Shown here: in pieces, positions 17,607 to 30,851 of the stretch | Numbering within the stretch: position 1 is the first letter of the stretch | Layout: each line of letters opens with the position of its first letter | Source of the DNA: Fibrobacter succinogenes subsp. succinogenes S85 | GTDB taxonomy: Bacteria > Fibrobacterota > Fibrobacteria > Fibrobacterales > Fibrobacteraceae | DNA: 32,000 nucleotides | NCBI RefSeq assembly: GCF_000146505.1 | Contig: NC_017448.1 | Location: 1,560,001-1,592,000, forward strand | Reading direction: 5' to 3' | Translations under genes and position numbers: made by a program | Notes under the pieces: generated by a model | Database searches by the model: none | Told to the model about the DNA's origin: nothing | Seen by the model: the letters and a program-made list of their open reading frames with translations, nothing else

Positions 17607-17607
17607 A

Positions 17608-18252
17608 CTAGTCTCTAAACTTCACTTCGAAAGGTTGTTCCATGCCACAGAAAGCAACGGCTTTGCCATCTTTTTCAGCGGGAGCAAAAGTCATACGAGC
17701 AATAGCATCCTTCCCCGCTTGCGCAAGTCCAGAGCCTGCGGGAGATTCTTCGATGACTTTGATATCATACGCGCGTCCGCCAACATCCACACAGAAACTG
17801 AGACGAAGCATGGCATCTATTTCGCGGTCACGGATTTGCGGCGGCACCTGGAAATTCGGCATGGAGCGGTTTTCCGGCTTTTTATCGACATCGCCTTTTT
17901 CAGTGGAGAGCGCGCCGCCTCGAAAATCGGCAACGAGCTCGCTATTGATGGCAGCACCCGCAGTTCCTGAAACGGCGCCAAGAGCCATGGCAAAACGCGG
18001 TCCCGCTTTGGGCGAGCGCGAATTGGACTTTTGGCGGTTTGGCTTGCGTGCCGTGCGTTTTTTCTCAATTTTCTTTTCAACTTCTTCAACTTTTTTCACG
18101 GAGACTTCGGTCTTGATGAATTTCTTTTCGTGGAAGATTTTACCCGTCAAGAACAAGTTCGCCATCGTCACGGAGAATACGAGAACCATGCTCGCGAGAA
18201 TCGCCGCGAGAAGGATTGAAAAACGCTTTAATAATTTCTTAACAAGTTTCAT
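17608..18252 (-). CDS. tonB: TonB-family energy transducer
   Basis: Start at MKLVKKLLKRFSILLAAILASMVLVF (TM anchor). A Lys/Pro-rich linker follows, then a TonB_C-like C-terminus (LRLSFCVDVGGRAYDIKVIEESP...). The longer ORF-track start would overlap exbD. Confidence 0.8.
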   Translation of the reverse strand: MKLVKKLLKRFSILLAAILASMVLVFSVTMANLFLTGKIFHEKKFIKTEVSVKKVEEVEKKIEKKRTARKPNRQKSNSRSPKAGPRFAMALGAVSGTAGAAINSELVADFRGGALSTEKGDVDKKPENRSMPNFQVPPQIRDREIDAMLRLSFCVDVGGRAYDIKVIEESPAGSGLAQAGKDAIARMTFAPAEKDGKAVAFCGMEQPFEVKFRD

Positions 18253-18265
18253 CTTTCGTCTATGA

Positions 18266-18670
18266 TTATTCTGCTTGGGCGGCGATGGAGACTTTTTTGA
18301 CGCCGGCCAAATTGCACATATCGATGACCTGAACGAGAACGCCAGTTTCGGATTCCTTGTCGGCAATCACGACGGCTTCGCGGTCAGGCGCTTTGGCGAG
18401 AGACTGTTTCAAGATGTCTTGCAGGCTCGCCAAATCCACCTGGCGTTCATTCATGTGAATCGTCCCTTCACGCGTGATGGCTATGAGCAAGTTTTCTTTT
18501 TCAAGTTGGCTCGCCGATTGCGCCTGCGGTTTCGTCACATCCACACCCGTTTCGCGAGTGAACGACGACGTCACCACAAAAAAGATGAGCAAGATGAACA
18601 CGATATCCATCAGCGGACCCATTTCAATGCCCACGTCTTTCTGTTTTCTTCTCGGTAAATTAAATTCCAT
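18266..18670 (-). CDS. exbD: ExbD/TolR-family biopolymer transport protein
   Basis: 134 aa with the motif GPLMDIVFILLIFFVVTS and a periplasmic domain. Confidence 0.9.
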   Translation of the reverse strand: MEFNLPRRKQKDVGIEMGPLMDIVFILLIFFVVTSSFTRETGVDVTKPQAQSASQLEKENLLIAITREGTIHMNERQVDLASLQDILKQSLAKAPDREAVVIADKESETGVLVQVIDMCNLAGVKKVSIAAQAE

Positions 18671-18682
18671 AACAAATCCTTT

Positions 18683-18713
18683 AGATTGCTTCGCCTACGG
18701 CTCGCAATGACGT
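18683..18713 (-). repeat. 31-nt hairpin-ATGAC repeat, GCAAT type (copy 1)
   Basis: AGATTGC-N11-CTCGCAATGACGT. Both arms are identical to the copy at 19414-19444. It supplies the last six codons and the stop of exbB. Confidence 0.75.
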
Positions 18714-19399
18714 TGTCCAGCTCGGGTTGCAAAATAGTTGTCGATTACCGTTGCGCCAAGTTCCATTTCCTGCTTCAAGATTTCAATGCGTTCGTCCAAA
18801 CGCTGTTTCATAAGAGTCAGCGGGAACGCAATCAAGAGCCCGCTCTGCGTCGAAATCAAGGCTTCTGAAATTCCATCCGCCATCAGCACCGGGTTCTGGT
18901 TTCCGTACAACGTGATTACCTCAAAAGTCGAGACCATCCCCGTAACCGTTCCAAGCAGGCCCAAGAGCGGCGCGGCTGCAGCCATCACAGAAACAATGTG
19001 GTTTCCTTGTTCCATGTAGCGCACACTTTTCATCATGCGTACTTGCATGTAGTCGCGAAATTCGTCATAATTTTTTTGCGCAATTTCAATCGCGTAAGAA
19101 AGTTCTCTCGAAAGGAATCCACCGCGTTTGCGAAGGTTTGTCAAAGTCGTCTGCACACGCTGTTCATCAGAGGAAGATTCGGTTCCAACAACAGCTCTTT
19201 CGCCGGTCAAGCCGCGCTGCATACGCCTCACGACTTTAGTGATATCCTTTCTGAAAAAATCGCTACCGATGCGAAACCAACTCGAGAAAAGGAAATAGAA
19301 TCCAACAACGCCCGACAAGAGGATGGGTAGCATCACCACGCCACCCGCCTCATACGTATTCCGCAGAGATTCTATGAATATGTAATGAAAATCAGTCAT
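18695..19399 (-). CDS. exbB: MotA/TolQ/ExbB proton-channel protein
   Basis: 234 aa with three TM segments and the conserved AAAAPLLGLLGTVTGM and ISEALISTQSGLLIAFP blocks. Confidence 0.9.
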   Translation of the reverse strand: MTDFHYIFIESLRNTYEAGGVVMLPILLSGVVGFYFLFSSWFRIGSDFFRKDITKVVRRMQRGLTGERAVVGTESSSDEQRVQTTLTNLRKRGGFLSRELSYAIEIAQKNYDEFRDYMQVRMMKSVRYMEQGNHIVSVMAAAAPLLGLLGTVTGMVSTFEVITLYGNQNPVLMADGISEALISTQSGLLIAFPLTLMKQRLDERIEILKQEMELGATVIDNYFATRAGQRHCEP

Positions 19400-19413
19400 A
19401 ATTCATTCAGATG

Positions 19414-19444
19414 AGATTGCCGCGTTTTCAACTCGCAATGACGT
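19414..19444 (-). repeat. 31-nt hairpin-ATGAC repeat, GCAAT type (copy 2)
   Basis: AGATTGC-cgcgttttcaa-CTCGCAATGACGT, lying 3 nt after the TtpC-like stop and 14 nt before the exbB start. Confidence 0.75.
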
Positions 19445-19447
19445 ATT

Positions 19448-21055
19448 TTACTTACTTTCCTTTCCAAAGACTTTATTCATAAGCGAAGTACTTTGCACGT
19501 AGAGTTCGCTGGTAATTTTTTCAATCTTTTCGCTCAGGAGCCCATGCAAAATCATCACAGGGATTGCAATGACCAAGCCCATTTCAGTCGTGACAAGAGC
19601 TTCAGAAATACCGCCTGCAAGCACGCGAGCATCATTCGTCCCGACTTCGGTAATGACAGTAAAGAGCGTAATGATACCCGTCACCGTTCCAAGCAAACCC
19701 AGAAGCGGAGCAATCGTACCCATCGCCGCCAGAAGGCCCATGCGGCGTTCAAGTTTCGGCTGTTCACGGAGCAAAGCTTCTTGCAAGGAGCGTTCCGCAT
19801 TTTCACGCGTGTCGTTTACCTTGTTAAGCACGGCAAAAAGCACCATTGCAAGACTCGTCTCTTTCTTGAGGCAGAGATTGGCGGCTTCTTCGTACTTTTT
19901 CTCAGCGACAAGCGCATCCATTTTCTTGGTGAAGCGACGGCCGAGATGACCACGGTAAGAAAGCATCACGAAACGTTCTAGGAACAAGAGGAGCGCAATG
20001 ATCGCCACAAGCGAAAGCGGATACATCACGATACCGCCCTTCTTGAAGAACACCTTGAATTCTTCGGTCCAAGTGAGTTCCTTTGCATCGGTGATAGAAT
20101 TTTTGATGGCCTTGTTCTGCAGTACATCAAGCGGAATTGCGATAGTAGCCTGCGCGTCCGTTGCAGCACTTGCCACCGAGCCCGCCTGGTTCACGGCAGA
20201 CTTGATATTTGCAGCCATTTCCGTGGGCAGATTTGCATTCCATTCAAAGACCTTGCCCTGCAAAGCACCAGAGCGCAATAGCGCCTGCACATCACCATTG
20301 TCGTTTGCCACTTCGCCGAGGAACACCGTTCCCAAGCGCAAACGATTCACGTTCACATCCGGGCGCGTACCGACCTGCGAAAGTTCAGCACCATAAGACT
20401 GCGTGTAAGTGACTTCGTGACGGGCAAGCAAATCTGCCATATAGCCCTGCACCGCAGCAATCGTATTCGGCACATTCTTTTCGGCTTCAGCACTGGCGCG
20501 TTTCAAGTTCAAAAGGCGCTTGTTCATCCCGACCGGATAATCGCCCGCTACATCGCCAAGAGTCTTTTCAATGGAAAGCTTCACTTGCGTGTTGAGCGCA
20601 TCAAATGCAATTTCTTCGCTCTTGGACTTTTCTTCCGCTTCTTCAGTGACATTTTTGTTTGCCATCACTTCTTCGGTGACGCGGCCAAGATCTGTTGAGA
20701 GTTTGGAATAGCGACCGTCCAGTTCACGCGTTTTATTCTGATGTTCTTCGGTCAACTGCGATTCGGCATAGCGATTGCTCCAATGCTTGGCATCGAGCTT
20801 TTCAAGGGAATCGGCTTTTTGCATGCGGATGCGGGTAAGCGTTTCGACTTCGCGCTGCAAATTGCGCACTTCGATTTGCAACAAGGAATCCTTGATACGG
20901 GCTTCGTCTTCGGCGCTCTTCTTGTCGCTCGACCATGGCCATGCAAAAGCAGAAGAGGCGAGCATTAAGACAATTGCAAAAAACTTCACTAAATCCTTCG
21001 ACTTCGCACTATGTGCTCCGCTCAGGATGACACCATTTCTTTCGTCTAAAATCAT
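19448..21055 (-). CDS. Large MotA/TolQ/ExbB-family protein with long periplasmic N-terminal extension (TtpC-like)
   Basis: 535 aa: signal/TM, a ~330-aa coiled-coil-rich N-domain, then an ExbB-like module (MGTIAPLLGLLGTVTGI; ISEALVTTEMGLVIAIP). The ATGA start overlaps the upstream stop. Confidence 0.85.
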   Translation of the reverse strand: MILDERNGVILSGAHSAKSKDLVKFFAIVLMLASSAFAWPWSSDKKSAEDEARIKDSLLQIEVRNLQREVETLTRIRMQKADSLEKLDAKHWSNRYAESQLTEEHQNKTRELDGRYSKLSTDLGRVTEEVMANKNVTEEAEEKSKSEEIAFDALNTQVKLSIEKTLGDVAGDYPVGMNKRLLNLKRASAEAEKNVPNTIAAVQGYMADLLARHEVTYTQSYGAELSQVGTRPDVNVNRLRLGTVFLGEVANDNGDVQALLRSGALQGKVFEWNANLPTEMAANIKSAVNQAGSVASAATDAQATIAIPLDVLQNKAIKNSITDAKELTWTEEFKVFFKKGGIVMYPLSLVAIIALLLFLERFVMLSYRGHLGRRFTKKMDALVAEKKYEEAANLCLKKETSLAMVLFAVLNKVNDTRENAERSLQEALLREQPKLERRMGLLAAMGTIAPLLGLLGTVTGIITLFTVITEVGTNDARVLAGGISEALVTTEMGLVIAIPVMILHGLLSEKIEKITSELYVQSTSLMNKVFGKESK

Positions 21056-21888
21056 CTCACGCCTCCCACAACAGACAAACTTACAGGCAATTTTACAATC
21101 TGAGGTGGCTTTTTAGCCTGCTTCACATCGATGGCAAGTTTCACAGCGGCGCGTTCCTCAAGATTCAATTCTTCGTTCCATTCATAAACAATCTTATCGT
21201 TTTCCAGCTTACGTTCCAGGCGACCGTAAGAGGCTCCGTTTTCATCAACATAGACCATCCACTGGTTCCCTATGCGGAGAATTGTCGCATTCACAATTTC
21301 GCCATTTTTGCGAGTGAGCGGGCTGTTGACCACAGAAACTTCATCGCCAAACTTGATTTCTTCATTCACGAGCGACTTCATGCGAGAAAATGCTTCTTCT
21401 TCGGTCACGTTTCCGCTTTCGATTTCACGCGTCAAAGATTTTGCACGATCAAGGCGCTTGTCGCGTTCCCACGGGAGCGTCTGCGCAATTTGGACTTCGA
21501 GCTGTTTACAGATTTTGGCAAGTTCACCGCGCAATGCACGGCGTTTTGCGGCCACGTTATCGCTCTTGTTCTTCGCGCGGGCCTGCTTGTTGCGCTCCTG
21601 CTGGAGGCTTGATGCCACCTTGCGAATTTTGGCATTCAGGCTATCAATTTCCAGATTACGGCGTTCCACATCCGCCTTGTAGCGCTGTTCAAGCAACTGG
21701 CGGTGGGACACATCGGCACGTAGCATCGAATCCGTCGACGCGATTCGAGTATTCAAATTTTGAATTTCAGAATTCAGCTTTTCCTTCTGCAATTTCAGGT
21801 CGCGAATTTCGGACTCGTAGTCTGCAAAAGCTAGGCCCGAAAGCGAGAAAACAAGGACCGCAAAAGGCAATATATTCAATCGTTTCAT
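21052..21888 (-). CDS. DUF3450-family periplasmic coiled-coil protein (TtpB-like)
   Basis: 278 aa with a signal peptide, a long coiled coil and a C-terminal globular part (ATILRIGNQWMVYVDENGASYG...YEWNEE) as I recall for DUF3450. It occupies first position of a TonB2-type gene order. Confidence 0.7.
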   Translation of the reverse strand: MKRLNILPFAVLVFSLSGLAFADYESEIRDLKLQKEKLNSEIQNLNTRIASTDSMLRADVSHRQLLEQRYKADVERRNLEIDSLNAKIRKVASSLQQERNKQARAKNKSDNVAAKRRALRGELAKICKQLEVQIAQTLPWERDKRLDRAKSLTREIESGNVTEEEAFSRMKSLVNEEIKFGDEVSVVNSPLTRKNGEIVNATILRIGNQWMVYVDENGASYGRLERKLENDKIVYEWNEELNLEERAAVKLAIDVKQAKKPPQIVKLPVSLSVVGGVR

Positions 21889-21924: not shown

Positions 21925-21955
21925 TTAAACACCTGGACCCACCAAAAGTGTCACC
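21925..21955 (-). promoter_or_regulatory. 31-nt bipartite motif, copy C (upstream of the TonB2-type operon)
   Basis: Minus strand reads GGTGACACTTTTGGTGGGTCCAGGTGTTTAA. The motif ends 36 nt before the ATG at 21888. An A/T-rich tract lies upstream. Confidence 0.45.
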
Positions 21956-21980: not shown

Positions 21981-23732
21981 TTACTGACATTCTACACGAC
22001 CATCCTTAACTTCACACCAGTTTTTACACATCGAAATACTGAATGAAGAATCAAAATTTACCGTAACCATTTCATTATAATAATCATCGCACACTTTTTC
22101 CACTTCGCGATGCAAAACATTTGATTTCAAATTCTGGAGATAATAGCGGCTCACAAAAGCCGAACGACACTGTTCGTAATCCTTCAAATTCCAACCGCGG
22201 TCAGCACACCAAAGCCACAGATATTCCTTACAATAATTCCTTTCAGGATCTTCCAAGCAGTCCTGTTTTAGCGCAGAACAATCTGCAATATGGTTGTTTT
22301 TAAAATTGTTCGCCACGCAATAGCGTTTTAATCCGTCTGCATACGCATTCGCCTTATCCGCAGCATCGATAGAATCCGGCAGGAACTGCGACCATTTCGT
22401 TGTATCAAGCATCATCGCCGCCTTAACATGCGAAGCATAGCACGCCTTAACATTTTTGTTATAAACGGAATCTCTATAAACTTCGGTCGCATATTCGTTT
22501 AGCCCTTCCAAATCGCCCGCTTGCCACAAGTAATCCGGCCCTGAAACTCCTGCACAAGCAATATCCTGGTAAAGGCGGCACCCCCTGGAATCCCAACTGT
22601 CGGCATTATCGCCTTTTGTATCCGTGCAATTAGAGGCCGCGATATGACCATAACCAACACCTTCACCATCAACATTGACATAAATCGTTGTTTTCGCCAT
22701 TCCGCTAAACACACCCATTCCATTTTCAATATTCGATTCAGGAATAAATCGCGAATCCGAAACAGATTGTTTTACCTTATCCACATAATCAACATAAGAT
22801 TCATCTGTCGCATAGAGGTCTACAGAAATTTCACCAATAGGGAGCATCATATTCATCAGATAAAGCGTATCAAGAGTTTTGTTCCCTGCGACCGCGCGAT
22901 TTGATGAAAAACCAAGATTTTGTTGTTTTTCCAAAGGATCGTGCATCGCAATTCCGCGATACCCCTCTTCATCGGCATCAGTCATTCCCTTGAACATCCG
23001 GTTCATCGTAGTATTTTGCGACTCACCATTTTCAATACCGTAATTCATGATGGACAGCACTCCACGCACAGAATTATCATAGTCTAGCGCAACTTTAACA
23101 AACTCCATATCCATCGGATATTCTAGGAATTGAACATAAAACAGGTTGTTTGAATTCCGATTTTCTGTCCACACATAATCACCATTTTGTCGGGGTACAT
23201 TCATTCCCTTAACTTGAACTTTATTCGGAATAGTTGCAATAGCCTTATAGGTAGATTTTGCAACATGGCCAGCGCTATCCCATTTAAAATAAGCTTTCAG
23301 TTCATAGGATTCGCCCGTAATTCCGTAAAACATGTAAGGTGTATAAAAACAATTCGGGTTTGATGATTTGGGTTCCAGAATTGCAATTGTATCCTGTTTT
23401 TCGAAATCTCGACCAATTGTAAATCGTCCACGAACAGTCACATCAGCGCTATCATAGAAAGCGAAATTCTGTGATGAAGTTTCATCAAGCTGATAGACTT
23501 TTGAAAAACAGACATAAGGGTTTCCGTTTGCCATCACGTAACCATACGTATAAATACCCGTATAGACATCACGCTCTTCAGGATAGTATTCCCACGGTCC
23601 ATGAAAATCACAAGCCGCAAAATAAACAGACGAGAGAATCCAGACGAGAGACGAGAGGAATCGCCTACAAGATTCTTTGACTAAGTTCTTTCGTCTTTCG
23701 TCTTTCGTCTTTTGTCTAGAAATAGTATTCAT
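21981..23732 (-). CDS. Lipoprotein, N-terminal part DUF4249-like, with a ~220-aa Cys-rich C-terminal extension
   Basis: Lipobox VYFAAC. The ATG at 23732 overlaps the receptor stop by 17 nt. Residues ~45-355 end in SNIENGMGVFSGM, which I recall as DUF4249-like. Residues ~360-583 contain 14 Cys. Confidence 0.7.
   Translation of the reverse strand: MNTISRQKTKDERRKNLVKESCRRFLSSLVWILSSVYFAACDFHGPWEYYPEERDVYTGIYTYGYVMANGNPYVCFSKVYQLDETSSQNFAFYDSADVTVRGRFTIGRDFEKQDTIAILEPKSSNPNCFYTPYMFYGITGESYELKAYFKWDSAGHVAKSTYKAIATIPNKVQVKGMNVPRQNGDYVWTENRNSNNLFYVQFLEYPMDMEFVKVALDYDNSVRGVLSIMNYGIENGESQNTTMNRMFKGMTDADEEGYRGIAMHDPLEKQQNLGFSSNRAVAGNKTLDTLYLMNMMLPIGEISVDLYATDESYVDYVDKVKQSVSDSRFIPESNIENGMGVFSGMAKTTIYVNVDGEGVGYGHIAASNCTDTKGDNADSWDSRGCRLYQDIACAGVSGPDYLWQAGDLEGLNEYATEVYRDSVYNKNVKACYASHVKAAMMLDTTKWSQFLPDSIDAADKANAYADGLKRYCVANNFKNNHIADCSALKQDCLEDPERNYCKEYLWLWCADRGWNLKDYEQCRSAFVSRYYLQNLKSNVLHREVEKVCDDYYNEMVTVNFDSSFSISMCKNWCEVKDGRVECQ
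23628..23717. repeat. Purine-rich AGACGAGAGA repeats plus inverted TCTTTCG heptamer repeats spanning the first ~35 codons of the lipoprotein gene
   Basis: AGACGAGAGA at 23628-23637 and AGACGAGAGACGAGAGG at 23642-23658. A run tctttcgtctttcgtctttcgtcttttgtct at 23688-23717 is their imperfect reverse complement. Confidence 0.7.
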
Positions 23733-26178
23733 AATTCAGCATAATCGGTAAAAAGGGGAACTGAGTAATTTCTGTTTTCTTCGGAGGATTCTTGCGCGTA
23801 TCGTAGAAAGTAAAGAACATGTTATCGTGATTCGTCAAGTTGATAATTGTCCAGCTAAAGTTCCACTTGCCTTCACGACCCATATCAATCGCCTTCAAGT
23901 CAATTCTGAAATAATCCGTTTGGCGGCCTGCATTGCGGCTTCCCGGCAACACCACAATATCATCTGAATATCGTTGCGTACCGATTTCCTGCTGCAGATA
24001 ATACCCTTTGTACTCACTAATCGGCATACCCGATGAATACTTGAGTGCAAGCGACGAGCGGAAATAGCGCCCCTTTTTCTTATGTTGCCACAAGGCGTCT
24101 TCACCACCTTTCCAGTTGATGCCCAAATCCATCTTCAGAGCATACGGTTGATGCCAACTCGGGAAATACGGCTTGGAACCATCATTAGCGCGTGCAACAC
24201 TTATACTCTGGCTCCAGTTGATTCCACCAAACCACCAGCCTTTATCTTTACGCAGAGAAAGTTCATAGCCAAACGAATAGCCATCTGCCGTACCGAAATT
24301 ATCCGCCAGCACTAATTTTTTTGAAGACGATTCATCACTACTGTCCTGTTTCATCGCAAACGTATTCAAGTTATTTTGAGTTTTATAGTAAACGCCTGCC
24401 GTAAAGTCGTAGCCTTCAAAAAGATCACGGTGGCTATATTCCGCGGCAAAGAGCCATGACGAAGCGGGTTTAACGTGACGTCCATCCGTTGTTGTCGTTG
24501 CAGGATAATAGAATTCATTGAGCGTTTCCTGATCGGTATAGACAATTGAATTCAAATACTGCAAATAGTAACCACCATAAAGTTCTAGCGATTTCGTATC
24601 ATCAAGATTAACAGTCAACGAGGCACGAGGTTCTACACCAAAATGTTGTGATGCGGTCTGGTAATTGAAGCGCAAGCCATATTGCAGCAAGTAATCCGGT
24701 GAAATTTTCCACGCATCTTGTGCATAGGCGACATGATGGAAAGTCTCTTCATTATCAGCCACGGAAATTGACGCCATCTTTTCTTGATAACGTTCGTTAT
24801 CGTATTCCAATTCGTAGCCAAAGGTAAACGTATGATTATCAATACCACGATAATTCAGCCACTGTTTGCCAGCAAATGTGTAAAGCAGCATTTCAATTGA
24901 CATGAGATCGCTTACTTTCATCAACTGGTAAAACTTGCTGTAAGCAAATGTCGAATTGTAATCCCAGTTGCCATCGATGCGGTGGTAAATGCCAAGCGGA
25001 ATGGCTATGTTACCCCAGTCCATATAAAGCGGGTCAAATTCCAGGCGGTCCTTGCCGATGTAGAAACTGAACTTGAGGCGCGTATCTTTGGAGAGATCAT
25101 ACATAAATGTTCCCTGCAAGTCCGTGAATTCATAATCTAGATCCAAATCTAGGAGGCCAATGGCATTGCACAAGTCCAGAATGTAGCCGATGTAAGTTGT
25201 ACGACCCGCAAACACCCAGCGGGCAGGCCCCTTATGACCTTCGGTATGGAGCTGTGCCGCAAACGTACTGATTTTGATGCTCGACTTGCTAAACCATTCT
25301 TCGACAGAATCCTGACCGCCCGCACGGCCTTCCATCTTGAGCACAGAACTTAAACGGTTGCCGTACTGCGCCGGGAATCCGCTCTTATAGAACTGCACAT
25401 CGTCAATACCTTCGACGAGGAACGTGCTAAAAAGCCCAAAGAAATGCACCGGAGAATAGACAACGGCGTTATCGAACAAGAAGAGATTCTGGTCGGCAGC
25501 ACCACCGCGCACGTAAATCTTGGAACTGAAATCGGAACTGGCGACAACGCCCGGGAGCGCCTGAATGCTCTTGATGACATCGGCTTCGGCAAGGCCCGGC
25601 ATGCGCTTGATGGACTTTGCGGAAACGACGGATTCACCCGGCTTGCGCTTTGGACGGCGGCGCAACTGCACCACGACTTTTTTGAGTTCGGTCACTTTGG
25701 AATTCGCGCTACCCGAAGCGAGAAGTTTTTCCACATCGACATCGGATGTGCTATCGGAGTTTGCCGCGCCTTCGGCAGAGTCTACAGGATCCTTCGACTC
25801 CGCTTGCGCGGAGTTTATCACGGACTCCGTTCCGGAACCAACCTCGTCAACAGTGACTGCGTCGGGGCCAAGCGTTTTGCTGAACGTGCTATCGTTACCG
25901 AAATACAGGAGTTCATAGCATTTTTCCTTCTCGGCACCAGAAGTATCGGAGTTCGTCACACAAATGTTCCAAAGCGTATCGGCAGGGAGGACAACGCTAA
26001 AAGGCGTCCCCACGGTCGTCTGCAAAGCTTCGCCCGTTTCGAGAATTTCGACATTTAGCTTTTCGTGAGCTTCAAACGAGTCATCCTGAACAATTCCATT
26101 GAAGATAATACGTTCGTGGGCTGCGGCAAACGCAACCATCAACGACACAAAAACAACAATTTTCAACATAAAACTCAT
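23716..26178 (-). CDS. TonB-dependent receptor with CarboxypepD_reg-like N-terminal domain
   Basis: Signal peptide MSFMLKIVVFVSLMVAFAAA from the ATG at 26178 (AGGA RBS). A plug domain is present (SIKRMPGLAEADVIKSIQALPGVV..IYVRGGAADQNLFLFDNAVVY). A long beta-barrel ends in aromatic ...LNYEYYF. No FecA-type N-terminal signalling (STN) domain is recognisable. Confidence 0.9.
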   Translation of the reverse strand: MSFMLKIVVFVSLMVAFAAAHERIIFNGIVQDDSFEAHEKLNVEILETGEALQTTVGTPFSVVLPADTLWNICVTNSDTSGAEKEKCYELLYFGNDSTFSKTLGPDAVTVDEVGSGTESVINSAQAESKDPVDSAEGAANSDSTSDVDVEKLLASGSANSKVTELKKVVVQLRRRPKRKPGESVVSAKSIKRMPGLAEADVIKSIQALPGVVASSDFSSKIYVRGGAADQNLFLFDNAVVYSPVHFFGLFSTFLVEGIDDVQFYKSGFPAQYGNRLSSVLKMEGRAGGQDSVEEWFSKSSIKISTFAAQLHTEGHKGPARWVFAGRTTYIGYILDLCNAIGLLDLDLDYEFTDLQGTFMYDLSKDTRLKFSFYIGKDRLEFDPLYMDWGNIAIPLGIYHRIDGNWDYNSTFAYSKFYQLMKVSDLMSIEMLLYTFAGKQWLNYRGIDNHTFTFGYELEYDNERYQEKMASISVADNEETFHHVAYAQDAWKISPDYLLQYGLRFNYQTASQHFGVEPRASLTVNLDDTKSLELYGGYYLQYLNSIVYTDQETLNEFYYPATTTTDGRHVKPASSWLFAAEYSHRDLFEGYDFTAGVYYKTQNNLNTFAMKQDSSDESSSKKLVLADNFGTADGYSFGYELSLRKDKGWWFGGINWSQSISVARANDGSKPYFPSWHQPYALKMDLGINWKGGEDALWQHKKKGRYFRSSLALKYSSGMPISEYKGYYLQQEIGTQRYSDDIVVLPGSRNAGRQTDYFRIDLKAIDMGREGKWNFSWTIINLTNHDNMFFTFYDTRKNPPKKTEITQFPFLPIMLNYEYYF

Positions 26179-26202
26179 TACAGTTCCTAAACCTTTCCCC
26201 AA

Positions 26203-26233
26203 TGGAACACCTCAAGGTACAAAAAGTGTTACC
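26203..26233 (-). promoter_or_regulatory. 31-nt bipartite motif, copy A (upstream of the TonB-dependent receptor)
   Basis: Minus strand reads GGTAACACTTTTTGTACCTTGAGGTGTTCCA. The motif ends 24 nt before the ATG at 26178. An A/T-rich tract lies upstream. Confidence 0.45.
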
Positions 26234-26292
26234 ACATAATTCAAAAAATTTAAAAATTTATAGTAAACTCAAAATTTTTCATACAAAAGGAG

Positions 26293-26317
26293 ATCCCCGA
26301 ACAAGTCGGGGATGACA
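26293..26317 (-). repeat. Hairpin-ATGAC repeat, CCCG type
   Basis: atccccga-acaag-tcggggat followed by gaca. The stem is a perfect 8 bp. Confidence 0.7.
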
Positions 26318-26340
26318 AGAGCATATAGGAGATGCCCGCT

Positions 26341-26377
26341 CGTCCCCATCAAGCGAGGACAGGCATCGGGGATGACA
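26341..26377 (-). repeat. Hairpin-ATGAC repeat, degenerate copy with ~12-nt loop insertion
   Basis: gtccccatcaag...catcggggatgaca, ending 6 nt from the caspase-gene stop codon. Confidence 0.55.
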
Positions 26378-26383
26378 AAGTAA

Positions 26384-28657
26384 CTAGAATCGTCCGATGG
26401 TAAGGCCTGCGTAGAATCCCGGCCACCAGCGACCTTTATGGCTATTACAGCTTACGTCGTCGTGGTAATCGCCAAGCGGTTTAAGCAATAGCTTGTTCAG
26501 ATAGCCTTCGCTCGTCAAATTCAACGAGCCACCCACCGAGAGGCCAAAACCCGGGAACACCTGGTACACATAACCAACGCGGCCGCGATGGTGGTATCCA
26601 GACTTCCAATCATCTTCGTCCACTCCAAATTTATCGTAGACGTTGAAGAACGTGTATTCCAGTTCCCAATGGCTTCCGTATTTTCCGAACTGGGTACCGA
26701 TACCAACACCGTGTTCATAGAACTTTTCGAATTCCTTAAAGATATGCCCTTTCTTGAAGAATGCGGCCCATTCAATATTCGTGTAGAAATAAGCCGTACC
26801 CAAATGAACTGATCCACCAAGTGCACCCATTTCGTTGATGTATGGCGTCACGCTCCACACGCCGTTACCAACGATATTGACAAGGCCCACCGGAGACTTT
26901 TCGCAATGAGCGCAGATATTGACAATACCCCACTGGCGACCCTTTTCCTTTGTCGCATAGTTGACAACACCAATTTGCACCTTTTCGTTAACGTGAGAAG
27001 CATTTACCCCCGCAGCCACCTGAACTTTCGACTTTGTCGCATAATTGACACCAGCAACCGCTTGGCTTTTTGTAGTTTGTGCAACATTCACACCAGCCGT
27101 CACCTGCCAATCTGTAACCTTCGCATAGTTGACACCCGCAGAGACCTGCAAACCATTAAGCGAATCAACGGCCACGTTCACGATACCAATCTGCGCACCC
27201 GAGGACTTGTCCTTCGCAATGTTCACAACCGAGCTCACCTGCGCACCATCAAAAGACCCTGCATAGTTTGCCACAGACGAAAGCTGAGCGCCTTCAAAGT
27301 GGTCTTTTGCCACGTTCACAATCGTTGTCGCCTGCAAGCCGTGCATTTCCTTTTGAGCAATATTTGCAAACAAGCTCACCTGCGTACCCAACATGTAATC
27401 CTTCGTACGAGCGACGAACAAGCCCAACTGCAAGCCCTTACGCGGATCGCTATCCGTATCCACGAAGTTAAACGTCGTACGGAACTTACCGTTATGATCC
27501 AAAGAATCAAGCGAACATGCAATCGTATCGCCGCCCGGGCAACTTCTATTGCCGCCAATTTCACCACGGAACACCGTCTGTTCAGCCATAACACTCTTGA
27601 AGTTGCCCATCGAAATCTTTTCGCGCTTGCCGTTCACAAGAGCAACAGTTGCGCCCATGTAATCGGTTTTCTGCTGGAGATTCACCGTGTAATTCCCTGC
27701 CGGGAGGCCAAGGCTCATCGCATGACCTTGCTTTTTATTGAGTTCCGCCACGAGTTCGCCATCGGCATCGCGAATGTAAAGTCGACCGCCAACGCTTTCG
27801 TCCAAATCGAGGCCTGCGCTTGTCGCACGCAAATCGGTCATCACCACGTCACCCGTACCCGCAAGGTTCATATCACGGCTCGGATGCTGTGCGCCACCCA
27901 GCGTCGTTTCCGTCTTTTGCAATGTTTCATTGAACGCGAACTGGTACGCTTCCGAGAGCGTCACACGGCCATCGCTACTCAAGTCGCCTGCGCCACGGAG
28001 ACCGCTCACAAGCGAGTGCGTAAAGAACGAGCCCTTGAGTTTATCGCTTTCCTGGCTAGATTCATCTTGCGTACTGCTCGTGATAAACGCATAGCCCTTC
28101 ATGTCGCTGCTCTGATCGACCATAAAAGCAGGCACCGCCTTACCACCTTTCACGCGGGTAATTGCACCAGAACCGCAAGCATCAATCACAGCAATTTTCA
28201 CATCGGCACTGAGCGCGTCAATGCGATTACGCAAGTCCTTCCAGGCGTAAGTTTCTTCGCCCAGGCGGAGGCCCTTTTCGTCGGCGTGACCACTGTAATA
28301 GACAAGCACTTCGTCACGACCGTTAGACGCCTTGTCCTGCAAAATTTTTGCATCGAGATTCGCAAATTCCTTTTGCAAAGCAACAACAGAAGGCTCCTTC
28401 ACGAGAATCACGTTCTGCGGGAGCACGCCACCCATTTCCTTAAGCACCTTGGCAAACGAACGGGCATCACTTTCCGCATAGCGAAGCATCGGACGGCCTG
28501 CACCACCGTTATTGGCACTCACGGCCACTACGTAGCGATTGATACGGCCCGATTCTGTTGCAGCATCGGCATTAGAAGCCAAAAAGAGCAAAACAAAAAG
28601 AAATGCAAAAGACAAACCAGACAACACCCCAAAAGCCTTATTCGAAATCATAAACAT
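26384..28657 (-). CDS. Caspase-family (peptidase C14) protein with short-repeat region and outer-membrane beta-barrel-like C-terminus
   Basis: 757 aa with a signal peptide. The caspase fold shows a His-Cys dyad context (VLVYYSGHADE; KIAVIDACGSGA). About 12 tandem ~15-aa repeats G-x-Q-x(3-4)-V-N-x-A span residues 408-598. The C-terminus ends ...FYAGLTIGRF, with the terminal Phe typical of OMPs. Confidence 0.85.
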   Translation of the reverse strand: MFMISNKAFGVLSGLSFAFLFVLLFLASNADAATESGRINRYVVAVSANNGGAGRPMLRYAESDARSFAKVLKEMGGVLPQNVILVKEPSVVALQKEFANLDAKILQDKASNGRDEVLVYYSGHADEKGLRLGEETYAWKDLRNRIDALSADVKIAVIDACGSGAITRVKGGKAVPAFMVDQSSDMKGYAFITSSTQDESSQESDKLKGSFFTHSLVSGLRGAGDLSSDGRVTLSEAYQFAFNETLQKTETTLGGAQHPSRDMNLAGTGDVVMTDLRATSAGLDLDESVGGRLYIRDADGELVAELNKKQGHAMSLGLPAGNYTVNLQQKTDYMGATVALVNGKREKISMGNFKSVMAEQTVFRGEIGGNRSCPGGDTIACSLDSLDHNGKFRTTFNFVDTDSDPRKGLQLGLFVARTKDYMLGTQVSLFANIAQKEMHGLQATTIVNVAKDHFEGAQLSSVANYAGSFDGAQVSSVVNIAKDKSSGAQIGIVNVAVDSLNGLQVSAGVNYAKVTDWQVTAGVNVAQTTKSQAVAGVNYATKSKVQVAAGVNASHVNEKVQIGVVNYATKEKGRQWGIVNICAHCEKSPVGLVNIVGNGVWSVTPYINEMGALGGSVHLGTAYFYTNIEWAAFFKKGHIFKEFEKFYEHGVGIGTQFGKYGSHWELEYTFFNVYDKFGVDEDDWKSGYHHRGRVGYVYQVFPGFGLSVGGSLNLTSEGYLNKLLLKPLGDYHDDVSCNSHKGRWWPGFYAGLTIGRF

Positions 28658-29457
28658 TATTTACCCGCCTTCTTGAGAGTAAAACCAATCACCTTCACGT
28701 CGCTTCTCTTAAGCAACTTATCGACATCATTTTCTTCAACCGCAAACTCCTTGGGAGAAGTCACGAAGAAGAATTTTTCAAAGTACGGAGCATCGTCAAG
28801 CTTGTACGCAAACGGGAGCGAATTCATCTTGCCCGGAGCAAGTTCAATCGCCTTCACGCCATCGCCCATGTGGAGAGTCAGAGCGCCATTGCCGTCCATG
28901 CTAAAAAGGAGTCCAAAGCATTTTTCAGGAACGGCATAGCGCAACTGGATTTCATCGCCTTCGCCGACAGAATCAAGATCGTTCAGCTGGACAATCCCGG
29001 CAGGAGTCTTTTTCCATACTTCCATGCGGGCGTCAAGTCCCTTGATTCGCGTATCAGACTGGGTTTCGGCAAGAGCAACCTGCGTGTTTTGCGAACCATT
29101 GACTGTTGCAACATCGCCACCCACGCGTTCATTCATCACGGAAGTTTCGCGCTGGGCAAAGAACGCCACCAACGCAATCGCAAAAACGAACATCGCCGCA
29201 GCCGCAAATTTCACGAGCGTAAAGCGCACCGCATTTTTCGCAGCAATTTTCGCGGCATTCCCGGCGGCACCCGTTCCAAGATTCGCGGCAAGCGTTTCAA
29301 ACGGCAACTTGCTCAAAATTGCCTTGTTGTCTTCGCGGAGCATTTTTACACGATTTGCAAATACCGCATCATTCGCTTCAAGCTCGCGAAGCTTATTCAT
29401 TTCTTCTTCCGGCAAATCGCCAGTCAGGAATCGTTCTAATTTCCAATCGGGAATCAT
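28657..29457 (-). CDS. Anti-sigma factor: single-pass membrane protein with DUF4384-like periplasmic domain
   Basis: The N-terminus (DWKLERFLTGDLPEEEMNKLRELE) is anti-sigma-like but lacks a zinc-finger Cys/His motif. The TM segment is FAAAAMFVFAIALVAFFA. The periplasmic part (GEGDEIQLRYAVPEKCFGLLFSMDGNG) resembles DUF4384. ATG 29457 overlaps the sigma stop, with an alternative GTG at 29460. The stop overlaps the caspase ATG (TAATG). Confidence 0.75.
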   Translation of the reverse strand: MIPDWKLERFLTGDLPEEEMNKLRELEANDAVFANRVKMLREDNKAILSKLPFETLAANLGTGAAGNAAKIAAKNAVRFTLVKFAAAAMFVFAIALVAFFAQRETSVMNERVGGDVATVNGSQNTQVALAETQSDTRIKGLDARMEVWKKTPAGIVQLNDLDSVGEGDEIQLRYAVPEKCFGLLFSMDGNGALTLHMGDGVKAIELAPGKMNSLPFAYKLDDAPYFEKFFFVTSPKEFAVEENDVDKLLKRSDVKVIGFTLKKAGK

Positions 29458-29960
29458 CACTGAACCTCCAGAGTTTTAACTTTGGCCTGTAACCCGCGCA
29501 AACGCTTGCGCACACCGCTTACCGAGAGCCCCACTTCACGGGCAGTCTCTTCGAGAGTCATACCATCGACAAAATGGAGGACTGCCATTGTGCGGCTAGA
29601 TTCGGGTTCCTTCAAAAAGAGCTTTGCCAGCACATTTTTCGTTTCGTAATCGTCATGCTCGTCTTCGGCACAGGCGATGCTCAAAAGCAGGCTAGAAGAA
29701 TCTACGTCAAGTCCACGACGGCGCTTATCGCGAATGCGGTTGAGGCAAAGTCTCGTTGCCGTATTCCACAAAAGGCTGCTCGGCGACTCCATATCCAGGC
29801 GTTCCGATGCAGAATAAATCCGCAAAAAAACGTCTTGCATGAGGTCGCTAGCTTCAGCATCATCGCGAAGGAGTTGCAGGCAGCGCCTATAGACCATAGG
29901 CGCGTACTTCTCGTAAATCTTTGCAAATCCTGCTTTTTTTAAGGTTTCTAGGCTTTTCAC
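29457..29960 (-). CDS. ECF (sigma-70 family group 4) RNA polymerase sigma factor
   Basis: 167 aa. Region 2 is visible (DLMQDVFLRIY; WNTATRLCLNRIRDKRR), as is the region 4 HTH (MTLEETAREVGLSVSGVRKRL). GTG is the only plausible start. Confidence 0.85.
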   Translation of the reverse strand: MKSLETLKKAGFAKIYEKYAPMVYRRCLQLLRDDAEASDLMQDVFLRIYSASERLDMESPSSLLWNTATRLCLNRIRDKRRRGLDVDSSSLLLSIACAEDEHDDYETKNVLAKLFLKEPESSRTMAVLHFVDGMTLEETAREVGLSVSGVRKRLRGLQAKVKTLEVQ

Positions 29961-29965
29961 GTTTA

Positions 29966-29996
29966 TGTAACACCGGAGGTATTCAAAAGTGTTACC
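29966..29996 (-). promoter_or_regulatory. 31-nt bipartite motif, copy B (upstream of the ECF sigma operon)
   Basis: Minus strand reads GGTAACACTTTTGAATACCTCCGGTGTTACA. The motif ends 5 nt before the GTG start. It is the best dyad of the three copies (GGTAACAC/GTGTTAC). An A/T-rich tract lies upstream. Confidence 0.45.
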
Positions 29997-30040
29997 TAAA
30001 AAATAAAAATTTTGAATTATTCTCTATAAATAAGAATTCG

Positions 30041-30087: not shown

Positions 30088-30090
30088 GCG

Positions 30091-30801: not shown

Positions 30802-30851
30802 AAATTCTCCTTCTCAAAAGCTCCCAAGAATTACTATTCTAAACTACAATT

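What the first reader, a model, noticed from the sequence alone, without database searches (positions are those of the whole stretch)
26384..29960. Translationally coupled ECF sigma / anti-sigma (DUF4384-like) / outer-membrane caspase operon
The three genes overlap: TGATG at 29457 and TAATG at 28657.

The sigma factor is a standard ECF type. The anti-sigma lacks the HxxxCxxC zinc motif, and its periplasmic part resembles DUF4384, a domain often found beside bacterial caspase homologues.

The third product is a 757-aa exported protein. It carries an intact-looking C14 His/Cys dyad (YSGHA, IDACGSG), a beta-sandwich-like middle, a repeat array, and an OMP-style C-terminus ending in Phe.

Placing an envelope-located caspase inside a sigma/anti-sigma operon suggests regulated proteolysis. 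The caspase could act as a site-1-like protease on the anti-sigma or a partner, or it could be an envelope-stress or abortive effector. I know of no characterised system with this architecture.
Basis: partly seen in the sequence, partly recalled or inferred. Interest (0 to 1): 0.75.

Follow-up and report, generated by a model that had tools for sequence, protein, structure and literature searches.

The report
Sigma, anti-sigma and periplasmic caspase operon
A Fibrobacter operon encodes an alternative sigma factor, its membrane anti-sigma factor and an outer-membrane-anchored caspase-like protease; the trio is conserved in at least eight bacterial phyla with its own promoter, so it is probably an uncharacterised envelope signalling switch that works by proteolysis.

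Summary
Three overlapping minus-strand genes encode an ECF sigma factor, a single-pass anti-sigma-like protein without a zinc motif, and a 757-aa exported C14 protease. The protease has an intact His124/Cys161 dyad, LA_2272 repeats and an OmpA-like C-terminal barrel.

- **DUF4384:** the guess holds only weakly. 31 of 46 orthologues hit PF14326, all below Pfam's threshold, and the window protein gives no hit.
- **Conservation:** the trio keeps the same order and mostly overlapping junctions in 66 of 80 species loci, from Fibrobacterota to Myxococcota, Latescibacterota, Gemmatimonadota, Spirochaetota and others.
- **Promoter:** a GTRACA-N15-GGTGTT motif precedes the operon across phyla (83 matches where about 0.7 are expected). 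In the window it also precedes a TonB-dependent receptor gene and a TonB/ExbBD cluster.
- **Shared motif:** T-R-x-K-G is near-invariant both after the caspase's catalytic Cys and at the base of the anti-sigma's periplasmic domain.

My best reading, which is inferred, is that the protease makes the site-1 cut in the anti-sigma.

Sigma/metacaspase operons, including Fibrobacter's, were noted in 2012. Caspase-fold control of ECF sigmas is known from DdvA and the craspase/Csx30 system. I found no functional study of this module, so I class it as a new variant of a known kind.

The parts
29969..29995 (-). Promoter motif P1, GTAACAC-N-GGTGTT (ECF-type -35/-10). It ends 8 nt before the sigma start codon, so the mRNA is probably leaderless.
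   Evidence: The same motif in the same register lies upstream of the sigma gene in 48 of 62 triads across phyla.
29457..29960 (-). ECF sigma factor, 167 aa
   Evidence: Orthologues beside the caspase in distant phyla score E 1e-30 to 1e-50.
28657..29460 (-). Single-pass anti-sigma-like protein, 267 aa. Cytoplasmic helices span residues 1-55 (conserved PDWxLERxLxGxL, no Zn ligands). The TM helix is 80-102, a variable linker is 103-136, and a DUF4384-like beta-sandwich is 142-267.
29038..29052 (-). Codons for T137-R138-I139-K140-G141, the conserved motif at the base of the periplasmic domain and the candidate cleavage site.
   Evidence: K140 and G141 are invariant and R138 is at least 90% conserved in 46 orthologues. 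Counts are. pLDDT rises from 42 to 85 at this point.
26384..28657 (-). Exported C14 (metacaspase-like) protease, 757 aa. The signal peptide is residues 1-32, the caspase domain about 38-275, a beta-sandwich about 281-348, LA_2272 repeats about 405-597, and an 8-stranded-barrel-like C-terminus about 598-757.
28148..28288 (-). Active-site stretch: His124 (28286-28288), Cys161 (28175-28177) and the T167-R-V-K-G171 motif (28145-28159, so it runs 3 nt past the low end of this span).
26293..26313 (-). Terminator-like hairpin (ATCCCCGA...TCGGGGAT plus a T-rich tail) after the caspase gene. Similar hairpin units lie upstream of P1 at about 30036-30090.
26206..26232 (-). Promoter motif P2, an exact match to GTRACA-N15-GGTGTT, upstream of the TonB-dependent-receptor-like gene.
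   Evidence: The same arrangement occurs in seven other Fibrobacter loci.
21981..26202 (-). Candidate regulon genes: a TonB-dependent-receptor-like protein (23716-26202, Plug domain, likely ATG near 26178) and a DUF4249 protein (21981-23732).
21928..21954 (-). Promoter motif P3, an exact match, upstream of the DUF3450 gene.
   Evidence: The same arrangement occurs in L004, L009 and L017.
16581..21888 (-). Candidate regulon genes forming a TonB2-type energiser cluster: DUF3450 (21052-21888), long ExbB (19448-21055), ExbB (18695-19399), TonB (17608-18366) and a TPR protein (16581-17606).

Best explanation
This is a self-contained, autoregulated envelope signalling module.

**Shown**
- An ECF sigma factor is co-encoded, with overlapping stop and start codons, with two other proteins.
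- The first is a single-pass membrane protein whose cytoplasmic N-terminus looks like a zinc-free class I anti-sigma domain. Its periplasmic part is a DUF4384-like beta-sandwich.
- The second is a Sec-exported metacaspase-like cysteine protease with an intact catalytic dyad.
- The three genes travel together across phyla behind a conserved GTRACA-N15-GGTGTT motif, which I read as the sigma's own promoter.

**Inferred**
- The protease is held in the periplasm by a C-terminal 8-stranded outer-membrane barrel. The LA_2272 repeat stalk projects it toward the inner membrane.
- On an unknown envelope signal the protease becomes active, possibly by autoprocessing at its own T-R-x-K-G loop just after the catalytic Cys.
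- It then cuts the anti-sigma after the basic residues of the matching T-R-x-K-G motif, which lies between the flexible linker and the DUF4384-like domain. This is the site-1 cleavage.
- The stub would then be removed by intramembrane (RseP-type) and cytoplasmic proteolysis, releasing the sigma factor.
- The sigma factor then transcribes its own operon. In Fibrobacter it also transcribes a TonB-dependent receptor/DUF4249 pair and a complete TonB2-type ExbB-ExbD-TonB cluster.
For: **Conservation**
- 66 of 80 species loci carry sigma, anti-sigma and caspase in that order on one strand. Most have 4-bp or 1-bp overlaps.
- They come from Fibrobacterota, Latescibacterota, Myxococcota, Gemmatimonadota, Spirochaetota/Leptospirales, Bdellovibrionota, Eiseniibacteriota and Gammaproteobacteria.
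- The flanking genes are not conserved.

**Link between anti-sigma and caspase**
- L041, L048 and L049 keep the promoter, anti-sigma and caspase but have no sigma gene anywhere in the locus.
- L028 to L031 keep the promoter directly upstream of a lone caspase gene.

**Promoter**
- The motif has 83 exact matches in 1.0 Mb, against about 0.7 expected. Nearly all are on the coding strand.
- It sits at a fixed distance from the start codon: 8 nt in 21 Fibrobacter-clade loci and 25-31 nt elsewhere.
- The window has three exact copies.

**Protease competence**
- H124, C161, D64 and D159 are invariant in 43 diverse sequences.
- They align with metacaspase catalytic motifs. Orthocaspases and metacaspases cut after Arg or Lys (PMC6426788 abstract).

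**Candidate site**
- T-R-x-K-G is found in the caspase in 63 of 63 sequences for K-G and 61 of 63 for R. It lies 8-12 residues after the catalytic Cys, the position of the caspase intersubunit linker.
- In the anti-sigma, K-G is invariant and R is present in about 59 of 63, at the linker/domain boundary.
- None of the other eight proteins checked in this locus has the motif.

**Topology and precedent**
- The protease has a signal peptide and a barrel-like C-terminus.
- DUF4384 is often fused to protease domains. It forms the C-terminal domain of some Csx30 proteins, which the caspase-like Csx29 cleaves to control the ECF sigma RpoE.
- DdvA is an anti-sigma with a periplasmic caspase-fold domain, proposed to act before RseP.
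Against: - No cleavage, binding or sigma-inhibition data exist. The anti-sigma role rests on position, topology and motif only, and no Pfam or NCBIfam anti-sigma model hits.
- Dedicated site-1 proteases (my knowledge: DegS, PrsW, Prc) are usually not co-translated with their substrate. Conserved coupling suits a stoichiometric complex at least as well as an enzyme-substrate pair. Expressing the protease from the sigma-dependent promoter would create runaway positive feedback unless it is tightly gated.
- K140-G141 may be structural. The caspase's TRxKGG lies in a highly conserved active-site-proximal segment that need not be an autoprocessing site.
- Periplasmic orientation of the caspase is inferred from a mediocre model (mean pLDDT 62, Foldseek E about 1e-3).
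- The motif contains a partial inverted repeat (ACAC/GTGT), so a dimeric transcription-factor site is not formally excluded.
- All DUF4384 hits are below Pfam's threshold.
Confidence: 0.45

Rival explanations
1. The caspase is an output of the regulon and not part of the switch. The sigma/anti-sigma pair senses an envelope cue by some other route. The outer-membrane-anchored protease is simply its main effector, for example in envelope protein quality control or remodelling. In Fibrobacter it might process cargo for the co-regulated TonB-dependent receptor.
For: The caspase gene sits behind the sigma-type promoter even where sigma and anti-sigma are not adjacent (L028 to L031), as expected of a target gene. 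ECF operons often carry their main effector (established knowledge). In Fibrobacter the same promoter drives outer-membrane and TonB genes.
Against: It does not explain why anti-sigma and caspase stay paired, with overlapping genes, in loci without a sigma gene. It does not explain why the anti-sigma's sensor domain is of the DUF4384 type linked to caspase-type proteases. It does not explain the shared T-R-x-K-G motif. No other effector is conserved across phyla.
Confidence: 0.25
2. This is a partner switch without cleavage. The DUF4384-like domain of the anti-sigma binds the caspase as a receptor, inhibitor or pseudo-substrate, forming a complex that spans the periplasm. When the protease is engaged by its real substrates, or when the outer membrane is disturbed, the contact is lost. 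The anti-sigma then changes conformation or is degraded by general proteases.
For: Conserved stop/start overlaps suggest 1:1 production. DUF4384 occurs fused in cis to caspase domains, as a regulatory or recognition domain would. The anti-sigma motif resembling the protease's own loop could act as a pseudo-substrate.
Against: The catalytic dyad and S1-pocket acids are invariant, so activity is under selection. All well-studied membrane anti-sigma factors of this topology are inactivated by proteolysis (established knowledge). There are no binding data.
Confidence: 0.2
3. This is a programmed-death or anti-phage abortive module. The caspase is a toxic effector released upon infection or stress.
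For: Bacterial caspase homologues with ECF sigmas occur in conflict systems (PMC8195603). The best NCBIfam hit to the caspase domain is the EACC1-associated type. Craspase and DdvS/DdvA are defence-linked.
Against: The NF047832 score is 55 bits against a cut-off of 140. PADLOC gives no significant hit to a defence-system protein. The protease is exported and membrane-anchored, so it is away from cytoplasmic targets. Neighbours are housekeeping or variable genes. The module appears to be inherited vertically within Fibrobacter at a conserved position beside TonB genes.
Confidence: 0.05

Closest known systems
Sigma-70/metacaspase operons noted by Asplund-Samuelsson et al. 2012 (PMC3501461)
   Same: This is very probably the same gene association. 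That survey reports metacaspase operons containing sigma factors in Myxococcus xanthus (four operons), Anaeromyxobacter, Haliangium, Sorangium, Ralstonia and Fibrobacter. My loci include Haliangium, Corallococcus and Fibrobacter.
   Different: In the passages I retrieved by keyword, the paper records only the co-occurrence and assigns no function. Those passages do not mention the anti-sigma gene, its DUF4384-like domain, the promoter, the outer-membrane anchor, the shared motif or the regulon.
DdvS/DdvA of Myxococcus xanthus (PMC6061681, PMC11506125)
   Same: An ECF sigma is held by a single-pass anti-sigma, and a caspase-fold His-Cys protease module sits in the periplasm. That module is proposed to make the first cut in the flexible juxtamembrane linker before RseP acts.
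   Different: In DdvA the protease is a TPR-CHAT domain fused to the anti-sigma itself, with a zinc-binding ASD, and acts in trans within a dimer. Here the protease is a separate C14 protein with an outer-membrane anchor, there is no TPR or CHAT, the anti-sigma has no zinc motif, and its sensor domain is DUF4384-like. DdvS controls CBASS/CRISPR defence genes, whereas this sigma appears to control TonB-dependent uptake genes in Fibrobacter.
Type III-E craspase: Cas7-11/Csx29 (TPR-CHAT) cleaving Csx30, which holds the ECF sigma RpoE with Csx31
   Same: A caspase-fold protease cleaves a sigma-sequestering protein in a linker next to its C-terminal domain. In one Csx30 group that domain is DUF4384.
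   Different: That system is cytoplasmic, RNA-guided and part of a CRISPR locus, and its protease is of the CHAT type with a different cleavage specificity. The present module is in the envelope, has no CRISPR link, and uses a metacaspase-like C14 enzyme predicted to cut after Arg or Lys.
sigmaE/RseA/DegS/RseP regulated intramembrane proteolysis (established knowledge)
   Same: The proposed logic is the same: a periplasmic site-1 cut of a single-pass anti-sigma, then a site-2 protease and cytoplasmic degradation, with an autoregulated ECF promoter.
   Different: DegS is an inner-membrane serine protease that is not encoded in the sigma operon, and RseA has no DUF4384 domain. No homology to RseA or DegS was found.
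FecI/FecR/FecA-type cell-surface signalling (established knowledge)
   Same: An ECF sigma and anti-sigma lie next to, and apparently control, a TonB-dependent outer-membrane receptor and TonB components.
   Different: There is no FecR domain in the anti-sigma and no signalling (STN) domain detected in the receptor. The receptor is linked only in Fibrobacter and one other locus, whereas the caspase is the universal partner.
EACC1/EACC2-caspase conflict systems with an ECF sigma (Kaur, Aravind and co-workers; PMC8195603)
   Same: A caspase domain is genomically coupled to an ECF sigma factor, with autoproteolytic activation proposed. The best NCBIfam hit to the caspase domain is of this type.
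   Different: The hit is far below the family cut-off (55 against 140 bits). No EACC, TRADD-N or DUF1822 partners are present, and the proteins here are exported or membrane-bound.

Membership tests
ECF (group IV) sigma-70 factors | Only sigma-2 and sigma-4 regions, length about 160-200 aa | tested here: met
   Sigma70_r2 hits at 8.8e-15 and Sigma70_r4_2 at 7.6e-6. TIGR02937 scores 80 bits against a cut-off of 42.9. The protein is 167 aa.
ECF (group IV) sigma-70 factors | Co-transcribed cognate anti-sigma and an autoregulated promoter with an AAC-type -35 element | tested here: met
   A membrane protein follows with overlapping codons. GTRACA-N15-GGTGTT lies upstream of the sigma gene in 48 of 62 triads across phyla. 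Promoter function is inferred and was not measured.
Class I anti-sigma factors (ASDI / ZAS) | N-terminal helical anti-sigma domain recognised by a family model | tested here: inconclusive
   No zf-HC2, RskA or other anti-sigma model hits the window protein or 46 orthologues. AF2 predicts three to four helices in residues 5-60 at pLDDT of about 80-88. A conserved PDWxLERYLLGELP motif is present.
Class I anti-sigma factors (ASDI / ZAS) | HxxxCxxC zinc motif (ZAS subgroup) | tested here: not met
   Residues 1-55 contain no His or Cys.
Peptidase C14 (caspase/metacaspase/orthocaspase) | Family model above the curated threshold | tested here: met
   PF00656 scores 42.8 bits against a cut-off of 21.4. 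It hits 43 of 43 diverse relatives.
Peptidase C14 (caspase/metacaspase/orthocaspase) | Catalytic His and Cys at the canonical positions | tested here: met
   H124 and C161 are invariant. The profile aligns YSGH and DxCxSG with the YSGHG and DSCHSG motifs of metacaspase-4 (6w8s) and metacaspase-1 (7qp0).
Peptidase C14 (caspase/metacaspase/orthocaspase) | Acidic S1 pocket giving Arg/Lys specificity (metacaspase/orthocaspase type) | tested here: inconclusive
   Invariant D64 aligns with the Asp of the metacaspase 'ND' motif, and invariant D159 is the Asp of DxC. The assignment of these residues to the S1 pocket comes from my knowledge of metacaspase structures. No activity was tested.
DUF4384 (PF14326) | Family model above the gathering score | tested here: inconclusive
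   The window protein gives no hit. 31 of 46 orthologues hit at E up to 1, with a best of 26.9 bits against a cut-off of 27, covering model positions 2-80 of 81 over the same region. The fold is a beta-sandwich with only generic PDB matches.
LA_2272 surface repeat family (NF047436) | Repeat model above the curated cut-off | tested here: met
   The model scores 42 bits against a cut-off of 25, in three stretches. The G-x-Q...N period is visible in residues 405-597.
OmpA-like 8-stranded outer-membrane barrels | C-terminal all-beta domain that superposes on solved 8-stranded barrels | tested here: inconclusive
   The top Foldseek hits are OprF-N, OmpA, Ail, NspA, OmpX, OmpW and PagP, with target TM-scores of 0.4-0.66. 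E-values are only about 1e-3 and the model's overall pTM is 0.34.
CHAT / craspase-type proteases | CHAT domain with TPR array | tested here: not met
   Only Peptidase_C14, and in three relatives C13, is detected. No CHAT or TPR is found in 43 relatives.
EACC1-associated caspases (NF047832) | Subfamily model above the cut-off | tested here: not met
   The score is 55.1 bits against a cut-off of 140.
FecR/FecA-type cell-surface signalling | FecR domain in the anti-sigma and an N-terminal signalling domain in the receptor | tested here: not met
   The anti-sigma and its orthologues give no FecR hit. The receptor shows only a Plug domain and a faint barrel hit.
Known anti-phage defence systems (PADLOC-DB) | Any component model matched | tested here: not met
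   No significant hit for the anti-sigma or the caspase. The sigma gives only a marginal HTH-region match at E 0.0027.

The most novel reading that the evidence does not exclude
An outer-membrane-tethered metacaspase and an inner-membrane-tethered anti-sigma form a proteolytic switch spanning the periplasm. The repeat stalk and the flexible anti-sigma linker set the reach. Envelope state gates whether the protease can cut the T-R-x-K-G site. More generally, DUF4384 would be a dedicated caspase-recognition or substrate domain. This module, the many caspase-DUF4384 fusion proteins and the DUF4384-type Csx30 of type III-E CRISPR systems would then share one 'caspase cuts next to DUF4384 to release a sigma factor' mechanism.
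Probability: 0.3. Interest if true: 0.8.

Novelty: new variant of a known kind. Interest (0 to 1): 0.62.

Why it matters
- **A function for bacterial caspases.** Bacterial caspase homologues are abundant but almost none has a defined physiological substrate. This family is large: 2,395 clusters at 50% identity with E of 1e-30 or better, and at least 578 species genomes. It comes with a built-in candidate substrate, a candidate cleavage site, a defined promoter and, in Fibrobacter, a readable regulon. That turns the question of what a bacterial periplasmic caspase does into a handful of direct experiments.
- **A third layout for caspase control of ECF sigmas.** If the mechanism holds, a separate outer-membrane-anchored C14 enzyme would join the fused TPR-CHAT of DdvA and the CRISPR-guided craspase. 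It would also give DUF4384 a function.
- **Relevance to fibre degradation.** In the rumen cellulose degrader Fibrobacter succinogenes the module appears to govern a TonB-dependent receptor and its own TonB/ExbBD energiser. This may bear on nutrient uptake or envelope physiology during fibre degradation.

Tried and rejected
- **Fusion protein.** L080 seemed to encode a natural anti-sigma/caspase fusion (one ORF, 1069 aa). Similarity to the anti-sigma stops at residue 181 and is followed by Arg/Pro-rich out-of-frame text, so it is a frameshift and not a fusion.
- **Shared domain.** Homology between the anti-sigma and any part of the caspase protein, such as its middle beta-sandwich, was rejected. 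hhalign gives a probability of 0.7%.
- **Solved relatives.** Single-sequence searches of PDB found nothing for either protein. Only the caspase family profile reached metacaspases, and the anti-sigma profile reached nothing meaningful.
- **Anti-sigma fold.** Foldseek of the anti-sigma model against PDB gave only generic Ig-like or beta-sandwich matches at E of 2e-3 or worse.
- **Tools unavailable.** The AFDB library was not available. I therefore used a shallower alignment (A4).
- **Defence role.** PADLOC gave no significant hit to a defence-system protein.
- **Structured RNA.** Rfam found nothing in 21000-32000.
- **Fourth gene.** No fourth gene is conserved across phyla.
- **'ActD-like protein' label.** NCBI gives this name to Corallococcus orthologues of the anti-sigma. 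I could not link it to the M. xanthus act operon or to alternative complex III ActD, because the relevant papers are not held. I treat it as an unverified label.
- **ECF group number.** I could not assign one. The main text of the classification paper mentions none of caspase, DUF4384 or Fibrobacter, and its supplements are not held.

Full report
**1. What is in the window**

The window comes from a Fibrobacter succinogenes-like genome: the caspase protein is 97-98% identical to F. succinogenes entries.
- sigma, 29457..29960, 167 aa
- a middle gene, 28657..29460, 267 aa
- a caspase gene, 26384..28657, 757 aa

The junctions read TGATG and TAATG. The unit is bounded by hairpin elements of the type ATCCCCGA...TCGGGGAT. 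Some lie upstream at about 30036-30090. One, with a T-rich tail, lies at 26293-26313.

**2. The three proteins**

*Sigma.* It is a standard ECF factor, with Sigma70_r2, Sigma70_ECF and r4_2 hits and TIGR02937 above its cut-off.

*Middle protein.*
- It has a cytoplasmic N-terminus with no His or Cys, one hydrophobic helix at residues 80-102, and a periplasmic C-terminal part.
- On its own it hits nothing in Pfam, NCBIfam or PDB.
- AlphaFold2 with a 28-sequence alignment gives N-terminal helices at pLDDT of about 80-88. It gives a disordered stretch at 57-138 and a confident beta-sandwich at 140-267, with pLDDT 85-92.
- PDB matches to that sandwich are generic.

*Caspase protein.*
- It has a Sec signal peptide (residues 1-32...NADA/A) and a Peptidase_C14 domain above threshold.
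- It has LA_2272 repeats above threshold.
- Its C-terminal 160 residues are modelled as long beta strands. Their best structural matches are 8-stranded outer-membrane barrels such as OprF-N, OmpA, Ail, NspA and OmpX, at weak E-values.
- H124 and C161 are invariant in 43 relatives of 33-67% identity.
- A family profile aligns them with the YSGHG and DSCHSG motifs of plant and yeast metacaspases.
- Invariant D64 and D159 occupy the positions that, from my knowledge of metacaspase structures, line the basic-specific S1 pocket.

**3. The DUF4384 guess**

I collected 46 orthologues of the middle protein from other genomes (alignment A3). PF14326 was the only recurrent Pfam family: 31 of 46, best E 5e-6. 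All scores are below the 27-bit gathering score, with a best of 26.9. They cover model positions 2-80 over the same segment, which corresponds to GDxxQL...SxDGxGxxTxH in the window protein. The resemblance is therefore real but sub-threshold. I call the domain DUF4384-like.

**4. Conservation**

*Family size.* The caspase family has 10,643 representatives at 50% identity with E of 1e-3 or better, and 2,395 with E of 1e-30 or better. Most of the best hits are 700-850 aa long.

*Genome scan.* A scan of one genome per species returned at least 578 confirmed relatives, and I kept the best 80 loci. Searching their ORFs with the three window proteins gave these results:

| Arrangement | Loci |
|---|---|
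| Complete sigma, anti-sigma, caspase triad in the same order and strand | 61 |
| Sigma and anti-sigma present, caspase cut by the contig end | 4 |
| Triad with a frameshifted anti-sigma (L080) | 1 |
| **Total showing the triad** | **66 of 80** |

- The sigma/anti-sigma junction is a 4-bp overlap in most loci. The anti-sigma/caspase junction is usually a 4-bp or 1-bp overlap.
- The loci come from Fibrobacterota (Fibrobacter, Chitinispirillales and others), Latescibacterota and Myxococcota (Corallococcus, Haliangium, Polyangia). They also come from Gemmatimonadota, Spirochaetota/Leptospirales, Bacteriovoracaceae, Eiseniibacteriota and Gammaproteobacteria.
- The cognate sigmas score E 1e-30 to 1e-50 against the window sigma. 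An unrelated ECF sigma in L060 scores 5e-7. The sigma and anti-sigma are therefore orthologous partners of the caspase and not chance neighbours.
- Flanking genes differ even within Fibrobacter. No fourth gene is conserved across phyla.

**5. Informative exceptions**

- L041, L048 and L049 (Myxococcota and related MAGs) carry the promoter motif, anti-sigma and caspase with no sigma gene anywhere in the locus.
- Five Fibrimonadaceae and related loci carry the caspase alone. In four of them (L028-L031) the motif is immediately upstream of it.
- The anti-sigma/caspase pair thus survives without the sigma gene, and the caspase gene stays behind the same motif.

**6. The promoter**

- The motif GT[AG]ACA-N15-GGTGTT precedes the sigma gene in the window at 29969-29995.
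- It occurs 83 times in the 1.0 Mb of loci plus window. Base composition predicts about 0.7 occurrences. Almost all are on the coding strand.
- It lies upstream of the sigma gene in 48 of 62 triads from all phyla.
- In 21 Fibrobacter-clade loci the start codon begins exactly 8 nt after GGTGTT. This implies a leaderless or nearly leaderless mRNA. In Myxococcota and Latescibacterota the distance is 25-31 nt, with a visible Shine-Dalgarno sequence.
- The AAC-to-GT spacing of about 17 nt fits ECF promoters (established knowledge).
- The motif contains a partial inverted repeat. However, the left half varies (A or G) without compensation on the right, and its orientation is strictly fixed. I therefore read it as the sigma's own promoter and not a dimeric repressor site. 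This reading is inferred.

**7. The regulon in Fibrobacter**

The window holds two further exact copies of the motif.
- One is at 26206-26232, upstream of a TonB-dependent-receptor-like gene (Plug domain) followed by a DUF4249 gene.
- The other is at 21928-21954, upstream of DUF3450, long ExbB, ExbB, TonB and a TPR protein, which together form a TonB2-type energiser cluster.

The same second and third promoters recur in other Fibrobacter species, and the gene cluster follows the triad in 12 of them. A distant unclassified bacterium (L077) has the motif upstream of another TonB-dependent receptor. In Leptospirales locus L074 it precedes an extra LA_2272-repeat protein.

**8. A shared motif**

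- The anti-sigma alignment has few invariant positions. Two of them are K140 and G141, and R138 is at least 90% conserved. Together they form T-R-I-K-G exactly where the disordered, length-variable linker meets the folded domain.
- This is about 25 residues before the Pfam DUF4384 core begins.
- The caspase has T-R-x-K-G-G 8-12 residues after the catalytic Cys. K and G are present in 63 of 63 sequences and R in 61 of 63.
- That is the position of the intersubunit linker, where caspases autoprocess (my knowledge).
- None of the other eight proteins checked in the locus contains R-x-K-G.
- For an enzyme expected to cut after Arg or Lys (PMC6426788), this suggests one recognition sequence used for both self-activation and anti-sigma cleavage. 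It is suggestive only. Either motif could be purely structural.

**9. Mechanism**

My best explanation (confidence 0.45) is a proteolytic switch. The outer-membrane-anchored periplasmic protease makes the site-1 cut in the anti-sigma. Intramembrane and cytoplasmic proteolysis then release the sigma, which activates its own operon and, in Fibrobacter, the TonB-dependent uptake genes.
- Shown: gene content, domain identities, catalytic-residue conservation, module conservation and motif statistics.
- Inferred: anti-sigma function, periplasmic orientation, promoter function, the cleavage itself and the signal.

The rivals are:
- the caspase as a mere regulon effector (0.25)
- a non-cleaving partner switch (0.2)
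- a death or defence effector (0.05)

**10. Comparison with what is known**

- The 2012 survey of prokaryotic caspase homologues reported that four of the five M. xanthus metacaspases lie in operons with sigma-70 factors. It reported the same structure in Anaeromyxobacter, Haliangium, Sorangium, Ralstonia and Fibrobacter (PMC3501461). The bare association is therefore published.
- Caspase-fold proteases tied to ECF sigma control are also known:
  - craspase, which cleaves Csx30 to act on RpoE, with DUF4384 as one type of Csx30 C-terminal domain
  - ECF54, which has CHAT proteins in its gene context
  - EACC2-caspase systems with an ECF sigma
- The present module fails the membership tests for CHAT/craspase, EACC1-caspase, FecR-type signalling and PADLOC defence systems.
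- I found no functional study of it.
- I classify it as a new variant of a known kind. It is worth experimental follow-up because it offers a defined candidate substrate and readout for a very large family of bacterial caspases.

Noticed in passing
window 29961-29995 (minus strand); L001, L003-L032 upstream of sigma: The sigma start codon begins exactly 8 nt after the GGTGTT element in 21 Fibrobacter-clade loci. The operon mRNA is therefore probably leaderless. In Myxococcota and Latescibacterota the gap is 25-31 nt with a Shine-Dalgarno sequence.
   Followed up: partly
window 16581-26232 (minus strand): A complete TonB2-type cluster (DUF3450, long ExbB, ExbB, TonB, TPR) and a TonB-dependent receptor/DUF4249 pair each carry their own exact copy of the sigma-type promoter motif. 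The receptor has a long Asp/Ser-rich linker before its Plug domain and no detectable signalling domain.
   Followed up: partly
L041, L048, L049: These are 'orphan' operons of promoter motif, anti-sigma and caspase, with no sigma gene within the locus. Myxobacteria are reported to have several sigma/metacaspase operons, so paralogous modules sharing one promoter type may cross-talk.
   Followed up: partly
L027-L031 (Fibrimonadaceae and a Fibrobacterales MAG): The caspase gene has no adjacent sigma or anti-sigma. In four of the five loci the promoter motif is directly upstream.
   Followed up: partly
L074 152-1406: In a Leptospirales MAG the motif precedes an extra 397-aa LA_2272-repeat protein placed in front of the sigma/anti-sigma/caspase genes.
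   Followed up: no
L005 3834-4477, L017 2636-3285 (also L009, L023): An additional copy of the motif lies about 700 nt upstream of the sigma gene. In L005 and L017 it precedes a gene of about 197 aa for a Cys-rich flavoprotein-like protein (MKILILNASPRR...). The window has a TM1586-type nitroreductase at the equivalent position (30091-30801) with no motif.
   Followed up: no
L080 5152-8361: An apparent anti-sigma/caspase fusion ORF is really a frameshift within the anti-sigma gene, from either a sequencing error or a pseudogene.
   Followed up: yes
window 26293-26380 and 30036-30090: Repeated intergenic units (T)GTCATCCC(C/G)G... form short GC-rich hairpins on both sides of the operon. They may be a Fibrobacter REP-like or terminator element.
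   Followed up: partly
proteins P0396-P0399, P0492 (Corallococcus): NCBI names the Corallococcus orthologues of the anti-sigma 'ActD-like protein'. I could not establish the origin of this label.
   Followed up: partly
window 30852-31445 and 15334-16242: A Vsr very-short-patch-repair endonuclease gene lies upstream of the locus. A PD-(D/E)XK transposase-family gene lies downstream of the TonB cluster.
   Followed up: no
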